A stretch of DNA of 676 bases from Escherichia coli (GTDB lineage Bacteria > Pseudomonadota > Gammaproteobacteria > Enterobacterales > Enterobacteriaceae), in assembly GCF_003334385.1 (NCBI RefSeq), contig NZ_QOWN01000152.1; one strand, written 5' to 3'. The stretch's first letter is position 1, and each line of letters opens with the position of its first letter. Shown piece by piece: positions 1 through 676 of this stretch. The notes below the pieces were generated by a model that made no database searches, had not been told where the DNA came from, and worked only from the letters and a program-made list of their open reading frames with translations. Both the position numbers and the translations under genes were made by a program.

Positions 1-42
1 GGGGCGCGGTGTCCAAAGCGATCGTTTTTTACGCCGGATGAT

Positions 43-50
43 CCCCCCCC
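43..50. repeat. C8 homopolymer (G8 on the minus strand), followed by GGG
   Basis: Read directly: eight consecutive C at 43-50, 9-16 nt 3' of the HNH stop codon. Confidence 0.5.
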
Positions 51-58
51 GGGTCGGG

Positions 59-424
59 TTACAGTCCGATGATGTCGTCCGCTCTGCCACTACCTCCGGA
101 CACCTCCGGCAGCGTCGGGTCCGGCATACCACCCGCCGCTTCACGAGCAGACTTTTGTCGATGGCATTCGGTACAGAGCGTCCAGAGATTCGTCTCCTCA
201 TTACCACCACCGAACTGAAGTGCAATTCGGTGATCGAGTTCACTGTCACAGAGGTCAACCACACGACCACAGATACAGCACTGCCCGGCGTCCCTCAGCC
301 AGATATGACGCTTGAGGGAAACACGTGCACTGCCACTGACACGACGCTGCTCCCCCTTCAGAATATTCACCCGTCGGGTATTCAGTGTTTTGATTCTGCT
401 CTGGAGTGTACGAAGCTGAGCCAT
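59..424 (-). CDS. HNH endonuclease (zinc-binding beta-beta-alpha-metal nuclease), 121 aa, complete
   Basis: Minus-strand ORF with ATG at 424-422 and TAA at 61-59. I verified codons by hand: Cys49 (278-280), Asp64-His65 (230-235), Cys84-Thr-Glu-Cys87-His88 (161-175). The protein has the full HNH signature: CxxC (C49/C52), catalytic DH (D64-H65), GGGNEETN with Asn75/Asn79, and a second CxxC-H (C84/C87/H88). An SD-like GGGGA sits 6 nt upstream of the start. Family assignment is motif-based, not from a search. Confidence 0.85.
   Translation of the reverse strand: MAQLRTLQSRIKTLNTRRVNILKGEQRRVSGSARVSLKRHIWLRDAGQCCICGRVVDLCDSELDHRIALQFGGGNEETNLWTLCTECHRQKSAREAAGGMPDPTLPEVSGGSGRADDIIGL
92..111. repeat. 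10-bp tandem direct repeat (ACCTCCGGAC / ACCTCCGGCA) in the HNH 3' tail
   Basis: Read directly: ACCTCCGG occurs at 92-99 and 102-109, each followed by 2 nt. On the minus strand it encodes PEVSGG in the low-complexity C-terminal tail. Confidence 0.45.
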
Positions 425-430
425 GTAAAA

Positions 431-435
431 TCCCC
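431..435 (-). promoter_or_regulatory. SD-like GGGGA for the HNH CDS
   Basis: The minus strand reads CGGGGA-TTTTAC-ATG; the G-rich element lies 6 nt upstream of the ATG at 424. Confidence 0.4.
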
Positions 436-453
436 GTCATATGGCAATCAGTA

Positions 454-458
454 AAGGA
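454..458 (+). promoter_or_regulatory. Shine-Dalgarno (AAGGA) for the CDS starting at 466
   Basis: AAGGA at 454-458 with a 7-nt AT-rich spacer to ATG 466. This supports ATG 466 over the GTG at 406 used by the ORF track. Confidence 0.55.
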
Positions 459-465
459 AATAAAT

Positions 466-666
466 ATGTCATCGAAAAACCGGACCCGCAGAACCACAAC
501 CCGCAATATCCGTTTCCCCAATCACATGATTGAACAGATCAACATCGCCCTTGAGCATAAAGGATCCGGTAACTTTTCAGCGTGGGTTATTGAAGCCTGC
601 AGGAGAAGGCTGGCAACAGATGCAACGCATCTGCGCCCGGCCAGCATGAAAAATAACGAGAAATGA
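466..666 (+). CDS. Small basic ribbon-helix-helix-like DNA-binding protein, DUF3950 (YlcI/YnfO-like) prophage family, 66 aa, complete
   Basis: ATG at 466 is preceded by AAGGA (454-458) with a 7-nt spacer; stop TGA at 664-666. Translation verified codon by codon: MSSKNRTRRTTTRNIRFPNHMIEQINIALEHKGSGNFSAWVIEACRRRLATDATHLRPASMKNNEK. It has an Arg/Thr-rich N-terminal arm, then a strand-like NIRFPNHM segment and a helix-like GSGNFSAWVIEA segment, which matches the Arc/Mnt-type RHH pattern (N-x-R-x-P ... NGRS-x-N-S). The resemblance to E. coli prophage YlcI/YnfO is from memory and is not search-verified. Confidence 0.8.
   Translation: MSSKNRTRRTTTRNIRFPNHMIEQINIALEHKGSGNFSAWVIEACRRRLATDATHLRPASMKNNEK
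617..633. repeat. Perfect 7-bp inverted repeat with 3-nt spacer (CAGATGC-AAC-GCATCTG)
   Basis: Read directly: 617-623 CAGATGC is the exact reverse complement of 627-633 GCATCTG. It lies inside the 3' end of the 466..666 CDS (codons ATDATHL), about 30 bp upstream of the putative downstream start. Its existence is certain; its function is unknown. Confidence 0.5.
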
Positions 667-676
667 ACGTTCGGTT
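663..676 (+). CDS. Possible 5' end of a downstream gene (M-N-V-R...), truncated by the window edge; possibly terminase small subunit by synteny
   Basis: ATG at 663-665 overlaps the TGA stop of the upstream gene (ATGA), a classic translational-coupling arrangement. Only 14 nt are visible, so the product cannot be verified. The terminase suggestion rests solely on remembered synteny (ylcI-nohD in DLP12, ynfO next to nohA in Qin). Confidence 0.3.

What the first reader, a model, noticed from the sequence alone, without database searches (positions are those of the whole stretch)
1..676. Compositional step between the HNH gene and the RHH gene
By my hand count, 1-120 is about 65% G+C, the HNH gene averages about 57%, the intergenic and RHH 5' region drops to about a third, and the RHH gene body is about 50%. 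A shift of this size over a few hundred bp is typical of a mosaic junction in phage genomes. It supports the idea that the HNH gene is a separately acquired module. The counts are approximate and the window is short.
Basis: seen in the sequence. Interest (0 to 1): 0.25.

Follow-up and report, generated by a model that had tools for sequence, protein, structure and literature searches.

The report
Prophage packaging-module boundary beside cos
The window is the right end of a common E. coli lambda-like prophage, where a packaging nuclease (HNH) gene that travels with the terminase genes meets a conserved small gene (YlcI/YnfO); the G+C change is real but ordinary, and the nuclease gene is not a separate insertion.

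Summary
They are weak evidence. HNH (56.0%) against YlcI (49.3%) gives z = 1.5. Third-position G+C is the same (0.549 against 0.567). 15% of 676-nt windows in the same prophage vary as much.

The window matches an E. coli prophage exactly. The order there is lysis genes, YlcI/YnfO (opposite strand), HNH, cos, terS, terL, then a protease-capsid fusion gene.

A mosaic junction does exist, at the YlcI start codon (window 465/466). It is shown by comparison, not by composition. Prophages with lambda-type terminase genes, phage lambda and K-12 DLP12 all carry YlcI at the same place, without an HNH gene. Their homology to the window starts exactly at the ATG.

The HNH gene is not a separate insertion. 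It stays with cos-terS-terL in about 3,000 E. coli places, in all 83 related E. coli and Stx phage records, and in a Salmonella phage. This is the known HK97 gp74-type packaging arrangement.

Window 1-8 lies within the predicted 10-nt cohesive end.

Verdict: observation confirmed, interpretation partly supported, already known biology, low interest.

The parts
1..8 (.). Inner 8 nt of the predicted 10-nt cohesive-end sequence (cosN). The full site is L001 19999-20008, AGGGGGCGCG, which is window -1 to 8.
   Evidence: Phage Lys8385Vzw is 94.8% identical over the window. It is reported as a cos phage with a 3' cohesive end, CGCCCCCCCT, at its genome end (PMC7946995). The reverse complement, AGGGGGGGCG, forms bases 1-10 of L005 and aligns to window -1 to 8 with one mismatch. 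Cleavage at this site in this prophage is inferred, not shown.
1..58 (.). G+C-rich flank of cos (67% G+C) and 3' untranslated region of HNH. It includes the conserved core GGGGCGCGGTGTCC and a run of eight C.
   Evidence: 81% identical to the HNH-terS spacer of Salmonella phage FSL SP-016, although the genes themselves are only about 74% identical. The core is invariant in four aligned elements, including a satellite-like island.
59..424 (-). HNH endonuclease gene, 121 aa, with C49xxC52, H65, N79 and C84xxC87-H88. It is the terminase-associated packaging nuclease, of the same type as HK97 gp74.
   Evidence: Pfam HNH PF01844, E 6.9e-7. phrog_589 HNH endonuclease, 1.6e-44. RefSeq WP_000057924.1, 'HNH endonuclease'. 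Always followed by cos, terS and terL.
425..465 (.). 41-nt A+T-rich spacer (34% G+C) between the divergent HNH and YlcI start codons. It carries both ribosome-binding sites: AAGGA before the YlcI ATG, and GGGGA on the minus strand before the HNH ATG. It belongs to the HNH side of the junction.
   Evidence: Read directly from the sequence. Homology to lambda-type loci is absent over this stretch and begins at the ATG. Intergenic regions of this prophage range from 25% to 61% G+C, so 34% is ordinary.
464..467 (.). Mosaic junction A. It separates the HK97-type packaging module (HNH-cos-terS-terL) from the conserved YlcI core.
   Evidence: Partial E. coli matches begin at query 465/466. The alignment with L002-L004 is random upstream of the ATG and 85-95% identical from it. 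Lambda and K-12 DLP12 have YlcI next to cos-Nu1/nohD without HNH.
466..666 (+). YlcI/YnfO-family gene (DUF3950), 66 aa, on the strand opposite to the late operon. The N-terminal 50 residues or so are nearly invariant. A ribbon-helix-helix fold is possible but not shown.
   Evidence: Pfam DUF3950, 6.2e-20. NCBIfam YlcI_YnfO_N, 35.3 bits against a cutoff of 30. phrog_949. The AlphaFold model has two helices (19-32, 34-56) at pLDDT 73. The best PDB fold hits are ParD2, but E is about 5. ParD2 being a ribbon-helix-helix antitoxin is from my own knowledge.
594..620 (.). Mosaic junction B, inside the YlcI gene (codons 43-52). The C-terminal tails beyond it are hypervariable.
   Evidence: Matches end at query 594, 599, 600, 608 or 620. 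The protein alignment has invariant positions from residue 1 to 46 and nearly invariant ones to 49. Beyond residue 50 the tails are unalignable and total protein lengths range from 53 to about 90 aa.
668..676 (.). Mosaic junction C, just after the YlcI stop codon.
   Evidence: A second prophage in the same genome (L014) is 99.95% identical from terL through window 676. It then carries about 600 bp extra with a TonB-like gene, and homology resumes at 92%.

Best explanation
The window is the right-hand terminus of a lambdoid prophage that uses an HK97-type DNA-packaging module.

**How it works**
- Late transcription runs on the window's minus strand. It passes antisense through YlcI, then through HNH, across cos, and into terS, terL and the protease-capsid fusion gene.
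- HNH is the accessory nuclease that works with the terminase to cut cos. The predicted 10-nt cohesive end is at window -1 to 8.
- HNH is therefore an integral, co-inherited part of the packaging module.

**Where the G+C pattern comes from**
- A G+C-rich cos flank at 1-58.
- A Gly/Ala/Pro/Arg-rich HNH protein, especially its C-terminal tail encoded at 59-120.
- An ordinary A+T-rich 41-nt spacer holding two ribosome-binding sites.
- An Asn/Thr/Lys/Ile-rich YlcI protein.

All of this sits on the general lambdoid tendency for head and packaging genes to be richer in G+C than the lysis end. The same tendency is seen in lambda.

**The junction**
A module boundary does lie at the YlcI ATG. The conserved YlcI core of about 135-155 nt is shared by phages with lambda-type and HK97-type packaging modules. 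I infer that it acts as a stretch of homology where recombination swaps whole packaging modules.

**Shown:** the gene identities, the linkage, the breakpoints and the composition statistics. **Inferred:** the role of HNH in cos cleavage (by analogy with HK97 gp74), the exact cleavage site (from a 94.8%-identical phage), and the linker role of YlcI.
For: - Context: a 100% match places the window in the order Rz, hypothetical gene, YlcI(+), HNH(-), 289-bp spacer, terS, terL, protease-capsid fusion.
- Composition: G+C is 0.560 for HNH, 0.548 for terS, 0.578 for terL and 0.54-0.60 for the structural genes. The lysis-side genes range from 0.45 to 0.56.
- The HNH/YlcI difference is in GC1, not GC3.
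- Linkage:
  - The terS-cos-HNH stretch occurs at 3019 places and HNH alone at 2933. 1254 of 1287 records match at 80% coverage or more, and no terS-only class was seen among the 60 best-place rows sampled.
  - All 10 contexts of the exact protein show HNH followed by Terminase_2, TerL (called in 7 of 10) and the S78-capsid fusion.
  - All 83 matching phage records contain both genes.
  - In FSL SP-016, HNH lies directly upstream of terS and terL with unrelated upstream genes.
  - In an Acinetobacter phage, an HNH homologue lies near an annotated 3' cohesive end.
- Module type: TerL carries PF03354 and PF20441. It is 23% identical to HK97 gp2 over about 490 aa, E 2e-11.
- gp74 promotes cos cleavage by HK97 TerL (PMC9410871, citing Kala et al. 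2014).
- Many phages encode an HNH next to cos and the terminase genes (PMC3592412).
- The junction:
  - Partial matches start at 465/466.
  - The alignment confirms the breakpoint.
  - L002-L004 have lambda-type Nu1/A/W/B/C genes and no HNH. L002 and L003 carry the same holin protein (WP_000284510.1) as L001, and both carry SASA-esterase genes; L004 has a different holin. So in L002 and L003 the right arm is shared and the packaging module is what was swapped.
  - Lambda and K-12 DLP12 have YlcI about 200-390 nt from Nu1/nohD.
- cos: the 3' cohesive end reported for Lys8385Vzw maps to window -1 to 8.
Against: - Synonymous codon usage of HNH fits the lysis-side genes (P = 0.28-0.44) and rejects the usage of terL through the tail genes (P < 0.001). 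terS is intermediate. HNH is therefore not compositionally uniform with the whole structural module. This could reflect low expression or an older, separate origin of the HNH-terS part.
- This HNH is not detectably similar to HK97 gp74 beyond the motif (pairwise E = 0.096).
- No experiment on this HNH was found in the literature searched.
- The place counts (4480 for the whole window, 2933 for HNH, 3494 for the YlcI core) do not add up simply. Some HNH copies may therefore sit next to YlcI alleles too diverged for megablast. I could not list secondary places within a genome.
Confidence: 0.85

Rival explanations
1. HNH is an independently acquired, possibly mobile (homing-type) endonuclease gene that inserted between YlcI and cos. 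The G+C step marks its insertion boundary.
For: - Some GenBank records call it 'homing endonuclease' (H1-H3).
- HNH genes are often mobile, and caution about reading their role from position is advised (PMC12315714).
- HNH codon usage differs from that of terL through the tail genes.
- Lambda-type relatives lack HNH at the equivalent place.
Against: - No empty-site alleles were seen. Where this terS-cos is present, HNH is present.
- Relatives without HNH differ in the entire packaging module, not only in HNH.
- HNH lies upstream of terS and terL in Salmonella phage FSL SP-016 and upstream of the terminase gene in a Moraxella phage; in an Acinetobacter phage it lies near the 3' cohesive end.
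- G+C and GC3 are the same as in terS.
Confidence: 0.06
2. There is no junction. The G+C variation is only local noise from amino-acid composition and intergenic A+T richness.
For: - z = 1.5 for HNH against YlcI, and GC3 is equal.
- 15% of windows in the prophage vary as much.
- The A+T-rich spacer is ordinary.
Against: Comparative data show sharp homology breakpoints at 465/466, at 594-620 and at about 668-676. A significant step of about 6 points exists at the 10-kb scale.
Confidence: 0.05
3. YlcI, not the packaging module, is the mobile unit. On this view it is a moron-like cassette, on the opposite strand, inserted next to cos independently in different phages.
For: - YlcI is bounded by junctions on both sides and lies on the opposite strand to the late operon.
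- It is present in many otherwise different contexts.
Against: - It always occupies the same position and orientation, as the last gene before cos. This includes lambda and DLP12.
- Adjacent right-arm genes (the identical holin WP_000284510.1, DUF826, DUF1378, SASA esterase) are shared between the HK97-type locus and the lambda-type loci L002 and L003. What differs is the packaging side.
- No promoter or terminator signal above chance flanks it.
Confidence: 0.04

Closest known systems
HK97 gp74-type terminase-associated HNH endonuclease (Kala et al. 2014 PNAS, cited in PMC9410871; Xu & Gupta 2013, PMC3592412)
   Same: - A small HNH protein of about 120 aa with CxxC...H...N...CxxCH.
- It is the last gene at the right end of the genome, directly before cos, terS, terL and an HK97-fold capsid gene.
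- TerL belongs to the same Pfam families and is distantly homologous to HK97 gp2.
- A near relative has a 10-nt 3' cohesive end.
   Different: - No significant sequence similarity to gp74 beyond the motif (E 0.096).
- terS is Terminase_2 and is unrelated to HK97 gp1.
- The protease and capsid genes are fused.
- HK97 has no YlcI gene upstream of gp74.
- The function of this protein has not been tested.
Right end of phage lambda and of K-12 DLP12: ...bor, p78, p79, YlcI, cos, Nu1/nohD
   Same: The same YlcI gene (88% identical over 52 aa) is the last gene before cos, on the strand opposite to late transcription. The G+C rise from the lysis end into the packaging genes is also the same.
   Different: Lambda-type Nu1/A terminase, a 12-nt 5' overhang (PMC12315714), and no HNH. 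The spacer between YlcI and Nu1 is A+T-rich (36-43% G+C) and is not occupied by a gene.
Modular mosaicism of lambdoid phages, with junctions at gene boundaries (established knowledge: Susskind & Botstein 1978; Juhala et al. 2000; cited from memory)
   Same: Sharp homology breakpoints fall at a start codon and near gene ends. Whole functional modules are exchanged between phages that share flanking sequence.
   Different: Nothing essential. This is a typical example. Here composition is a poor indicator of the junction.

Membership tests
Terminase-associated packaging HNH (HK97 gp74 type) | HNH (beta-beta-alpha-metal) motif with a zinc-binding CxxC pair | tested here: met
   Pfam HNH, 6.9e-7, residues 49-94. 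C49xxC52, H65, N79 and C84xxC87-H88 can be read in the translation.
Terminase-associated packaging HNH (HK97 gp74 type) | Gene lies immediately upstream of cos and of terS/terL, in the same orientation, at the right end of the genome | tested here: met
   The Lys8385Vzw record ends 59 nt after the HNH stop codon.
Terminase-associated packaging HNH (HK97 gp74 type) | Partner TerL of the HK97 class, with an HK97-fold capsid module | tested here: met
   TerL_ATPase PF03354 and TerL_nuclease PF20441. 23% identity to HK97 gp2, E 2e-11. Peptidase_S78 plus Phage_capsid fusion.
Terminase-associated packaging HNH (HK97 gp74 type) | 10-nt 3'-protruding cohesive ends | tested here: inconclusive
   Reported for the 94.8%-identical phage Lys8385Vzw (PMC7946995). 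The homologous 10-mer is present with one mismatch. The ends of this prophage's DNA have not been measured.
Terminase-associated packaging HNH (HK97 gp74 type) | Sequence homology to gp74 itself | tested here: not met
   BLASTP E = 0.096, motif region only. HK97 is absent from the tblastn hits at 1e-5. The class is defined by position and function rather than by orthology, so this lowers 'orthologue of gp74', not 'works like gp74'.
Terminase-associated packaging HNH (HK97 gp74 type) | Required for, or stimulates, cos cleavage by the terminase | not testable with these tools
   Needs genetics or an in vitro cleavage assay.
Free-standing homing HNH endonuclease, or separately acquired module | Sporadic presence or absence at an otherwise conserved site among close relatives | tested here: not met
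   The spanning query terS-cos-HNH matches at 80% coverage or more in 1254 of 1287 records. The remaining records include cos-only and truncated matches. Only the best place per record could be inspected.
Free-standing homing HNH endonuclease, or separately acquired module | Composition or codon usage distinct from both neighbours | tested here: not met
   G+C and GC3 are the same as in terS, and GC3 and codon usage are the same as in YlcI. True foreign inserts in the same prophage look very different: the ompC-like porin has GC3 0.358, and the nuclease and Dcm genes have GC3 0.246 and 0.303.
YlcI/YnfO family (DUF3950) | Match to the family models above threshold | tested here: met
   PF13132, 6.2e-20. 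NF041551, 35.3 bits against a cutoff of 30.
   The model shows two helices preceded by an extended RNIRFP segment (pLDDT 73). The top PDB fold hits are ParD2, but E is about 5 and probability 0.15; ParD2 being an RHH antitoxin is from my own knowledge. There is no sequence match to any solved structure.

The most novel reading that the evidence does not exclude
The conserved YlcI/YnfO core may be more than a passenger gene. It is the last gene before cos in lambdoid phages with unrelated packaging modules, and it is always antisense to the late operon. It is present but unannotated in phage lambda itself. A member of the same family sits in the regulator position of a satellite-like island that also carries a copy of this phage's cos element. 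YlcI could be a small DNA-binding regulator acting at or near cos, for example on read-through of late transcription into the packaging genes, or on packaging or satellite interference. Its coding sequence could also be the homology patch that mediates swaps of packaging modules.
Probability: 0.15. Interest if true: 0.45.

Novelty: already known. Interest (0 to 1): 0.12.

Why it matters
It matters little for new biology. The arrangement of HNH, cos and terminase genes, lambdoid mosaicism, and the G+C asymmetry between structural and lysis regions are all established.

The case is useful as a caution. A visually striking G+C change over a few hundred bases was explained by amino-acid composition, an ordinary spacer and a G+C-rich cos flank. 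The true junction was found only by comparison with other genomes.

It also corrects annotations such as 'homing endonuclease', 'DNase' and 'restriction endonuclease' for this gene in many Stx-phage records.

Tried and rejected
- **Place-count arithmetic.** I tried to derive the number of HNH-only and YlcI-only places from the counts (4480 for the whole window, 2933 for HNH, 3494 for the YlcI core). I rejected this. Megablast misses diverged YlcI alleles such as the K-12/lambda type, and only the best place per genome is listed.
- **Direct homology to HK97 gp74 and gp1.** Not significant.
- **Kala et al. 2014 (PMC4000778).** Not held. Cited through PMC9410871.
- **Promoter and terminator scan around YlcI and HNH.** No more sites than in shuffles. 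There is one weak sigma-70-like site inside HNH, at window 336-364.
- **Rfam scan of 2 kb around the window.** Nothing.
- **RHH fold of YlcI.** The Foldseek search against the PDB gave no significant match. Sequence and profile searches of solved structures also found nothing.
- **G+C change-point analysis.** It cannot decide between the terS-HNH spacer and the HNH start.
- **Literature search for YlcI/YnfO.** The 12 listed of 38 hits contained no functional study.
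Full report
**1. What the window is**

The 676 bases match E. coli DETEC-S792 (NZ_CP116067.1, 1508018-1508693) at 100%. The full window is found at 80% coverage or more in 1250 of 5426 complete E. coli genomes, and in 83 phage records, mostly Stx-converting phages.

In the 40-kb context (L001) the late operon runs on the window's minus strand. The gene order is:
- Q antiterminator
- holin, lysozyme, Rz
- a hypothetical gene
- YlcI/YnfO (plus strand, so antisense to the late operon)
- HNH
- a 289-bp spacer
- terS, terL
- a protease-capsid fusion gene
- portal and tail genes.

HNH (window 59-424, minus strand, 121 aa) matches Pfam HNH (6.9e-7) and phrog_589. It has an intact CxxC...H...N...CxxCH motif.

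The 'RHH' gene (466-666, plus strand, 66 aa) is a YlcI/YnfO DUF3950 protein (Pfam 6.2e-20; NCBIfam above its cutoff).

**2. The observation**

| Segment | G+C |
|---|---|
| 1-120 | 65.0% |
| HNH CDS 59-424 | 56.0% |
| Spacer 425-465 | 34.1% |
| YlcI CDS 466-666 | 49.3% |

Only the claim that the 5' part of the RHH gene is low is wrong. Its first 60 nt are 51.7%.

As evidence the numbers are weak.
- HNH against YlcI gives z = 1.53.
- The whole difference is in codon position 1 (0.631 against 0.418). HNH is rich in Arg, Gly, Leu and Ala. YlcI is rich in Arg, Asn, Thr and Ala, with Ser, Ile and Lys also frequent.
- GC3 is equal, 0.549 against 0.567.
- 15% of 676-nt windows in this prophage show an equal or larger spread of 60-nt G+C. 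The left/right contrast is reached at 5.8% of positions.
- The spacer's 34% lies within the range for intergenic regions here, 25-61%.
- The 65% at the left end comes from two sources. One is a G+C-rich cos flank (1-58, 67%). The other is the Gly/Ala/Pro-rich C-terminal tail of HNH (59-120).

**3. The larger-scale step**

The structural side, from the tail genes to HNH, is 57.5% G+C once an ompC-like insert is excluded. The 7 kb on the YlcI/lysis side is 51.8%.
- A single change-point model gives a log-likelihood ratio of about 30, so the step is real.
- The maximum is at L001 19842, in the terS-HNH spacer (32.1). The HNH start scores 29.3 and the YlcI ATG 27.4. Composition therefore cannot say on which side HNH belongs.

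The same asymmetry exists elsewhere.
- Lambda is 56.9% over its first 20 kb and 44.9% over the rest.
- In the lambda-type prophages L002-L004 the packaging genes are 51-52% and the region downstream of YlcI is 45-46%.

It is a general property of lambdoid genomes, not a mark of a recent insertion.

**4. Codon usage**

I built synonymous-codon models from terL through the tail genes and from the lysis-side genes.
- HNH fits the lysis-side usage (P = 0.28-0.44) and rejects the structural usage (P < 0.001 in 3000 simulations).
- YlcI behaves in the same way.
- terS is intermediate.

HNH and YlcI are therefore alike at synonymous sites. It also shows that HNH, and partly terS, are not uniform with the abundant structural genes. 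That could reflect low expression or an older history. I record it as evidence against a fully uniform module.

For contrast, inserts in this prophage that look truly foreign have very different third-position G+C:
- the ompC-like porin, GC3 0.358
- an OLD/Gabija-like ATPase-nuclease, GC3 0.246
- a Dcm methyltransferase, GC3 0.303.

**5. Comparative evidence: a junction exists, at the YlcI ATG**

In E. coli genomes, the records whose best match is only partial start at query 465/466 and end at 599-620.

Three such loci (L002-L004) have YlcI in the same position and orientation. Beside it they have lambda-type packaging genes: Nu1-like terS, A-like terL, W, B portal and C S49 peptidase. They have no HNH.

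The alignment shows no similarity upstream of the ATG and 85-95% identity from the ATG to about window 612.

L002 and L003 share right-arm genes with L001, including an identical holin protein (WP_000284510.1). What was exchanged there is the packaging module.

K-12 DLP12 has ylcI next to nohD. Phage lambda itself has an intact 64-aa YlcI ORF at 48303-48109 on the minus strand, 199 nt from its right end. This ORF is absent from the RefSeq feature table.

There are two further junctions.
- One lies inside YlcI at about 594-620. The residues up to about 50 are nearly invariant and the C-terminal tails are hypervariable.
- One lies at about 668-676. There a second prophage in the same genome, 99.95% identical from terL up to that point, diverges.

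**6. HNH travels with the terminase genes**

- A 901-nt query spanning the terS 5' end, the spacer and the HNH 3' end is intact in 1254 of 1287 matching records. It occurs at 3019 places, against 2933 for HNH alone. No class with terS but without HNH was seen among the 60 best-place rows sampled.
- The exact HNH protein has the same downstream neighbours in 10 of 10 distinct contexts: Terminase_2, TerL (called in 7 of 10) and a Peptidase_S78-capsid fusion.
- A 70%-identical HNH in Salmonella phage FSL SP-016 lies directly upstream of terS, terL and the protease-capsid gene. The genes upstream of it are unrelated and there is no YlcI.
- Homologues at about 34% identity in Moraxella and Acinetobacter phages lie by the terminase gene or by an annotated 3' cohesive end.
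- TerL belongs to PF03354 and PF20441 and is distantly homologous to HK97 gp2.

This is the arrangement described for HK97 gp74. There the HNH protein promotes cos cleavage by TerL (PMC9410871, citing Kala et al. 2014). HNH genes are also widely found beside cos and the terminase genes (PMC3592412).

The protein is not a detectable homologue of gp74 beyond the motif. I therefore say it works like gp74, not that it is an orthologue of gp74.

**7. cos**

Phage Lys8385Vzw is 94.8% identical over the window. [quoted passage not shown] Its record ends 2 nt to the left of window position 1. The homologous 10-mer, AGGGGGCGCG, is L001 19999-20008, which is window -1 to 8.

The window is thus essentially the last 676 nt at the right end of the virion chromosome. 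The stretch toward terS holds five GTTAAC-centred repeats, which are candidate TerS-binding sites.

**8. The 'RHH' label**

The YlcI model has an extended RNIRFP segment followed by two helices, at pLDDT 73. This is compatible with a ribbon-helix-helix fold. The best fold matches, to ParD2 (an RHH antitoxin, from my own knowledge), are not significant (E about 5). Sequence searches of solved structures find nothing. The label is plausible but unproven.

**9. Verdict**

- A junction is present. It is revealed by comparison, not by composition.
- HNH is part of the HK97-type packaging module and is not a separately acquired gene.
- All elements are of known kinds and are very common in E. coli.
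- Interest is low.

The only mildly open threads concern the untested YlcI gene that sits beside cos, and a satellite-like island that carries a copy of this cos element. Both are listed under things noticed in passing.

Noticed in passing
L001 19840-20016 (window -160 to +16): A cos-like element lies in the terS-HNH spacer. It has five GTTAAC-centred repeats (at 19846, 19861, 19884, 19952 and 19960) and a conserved core, ATTTTTTCTCTGCGTGAG|AGGGGGCGCGGTGTCC. The core is shared with Salmonella phage FSL SP-016. The repeats are candidate TerS-binding sites.
   Followed up: partly
L025 (NZ_CP086526.1 2992500-3008000), cos-like element at L012 4001-4175: A satellite-like island of about 10 kb lies between clpS and cspD. 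It carries an integrase, an HTH regulator, an Icd-like gene, a RepA helicase, an SSB fragment and a ClpP-protease/capsid fusion gene. At its end it has an 80%-identical copy of this phage's cos element, GTTAAC repeats included. No more than about 30 E. coli records can have only this 174-nt element as their best match (two were seen among the 60 rows sampled). This could be cos mimicry by a PICI-type satellite.
   Followed up: partly
L025 7621-7926 (+): In that island a 101-aa protein matches the YlcI_YnfO_N model more strongly than the window's own protein does (60.3 bits against 35.3). It lies divergent from the Icd-like/replication operon, the slot usually held by a regulator. It shows no pairwise BLAST similarity to the window's YlcI.
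   Followed up: partly
L011 (phage lambda NC_001416.1) 48109-48303, minus strand: Lambda has an intact 64-aa YlcI/DUF3950 ORF 199 nt from its right cohesive end. By eye its sequence looks the same as K-12 YlcI. It is not in the RefSeq feature table.
   Followed up: partly
window 1 and window 676: Both window edges coincide with biological boundaries. Position 1 lies inside the predicted cohesive end. Position 676 is where a second prophage of the same genome stops being 99.95% identical.
   Followed up: partly
L001 17001-20676 and L014 602-4277: Two prophages in one genome share a 3.7-kb block (terL, terS, cos, HNH, YlcI) with only 2 mismatches, at window 542 and 564. Their flanks differ by 5-8%. 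This suggests recent recombination or gene conversion between resident prophages.
   Followed up: partly
L001 4788-5951: An ompC-like porin gene sits inside the tail gene cluster. It has 43.6% G+C and GC3 0.358, with flanks of 25-37% G+C. This is a much clearer compositional island than anything in the window.
   Followed up: no
L001 28312-31146 (+): An ATPase-nuclease related to OLD, Gabija GajA and PARIS AriA (best PADLOC hit HEC-04, 1.9e-36) lies next to a Dcm-type methyltransferase. Both are on the strand opposite to the late operon, between Q and the tRNA genes. G+C is 33-40%. This is probably a defence insert.
   Followed up: partly
L001 12751-15335: The portal gene of this prophage is annotated as frameshifted, so this copy may be defective for particle production.
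   Followed up: no
window 594-666; alignment A2: The C-terminal tails of YlcI proteins are hypervariable in sequence, and total protein length ranges from 53 to about 115 aa. The first 50 residues or so are nearly invariant across 918 database proteins.
   Followed up: partly
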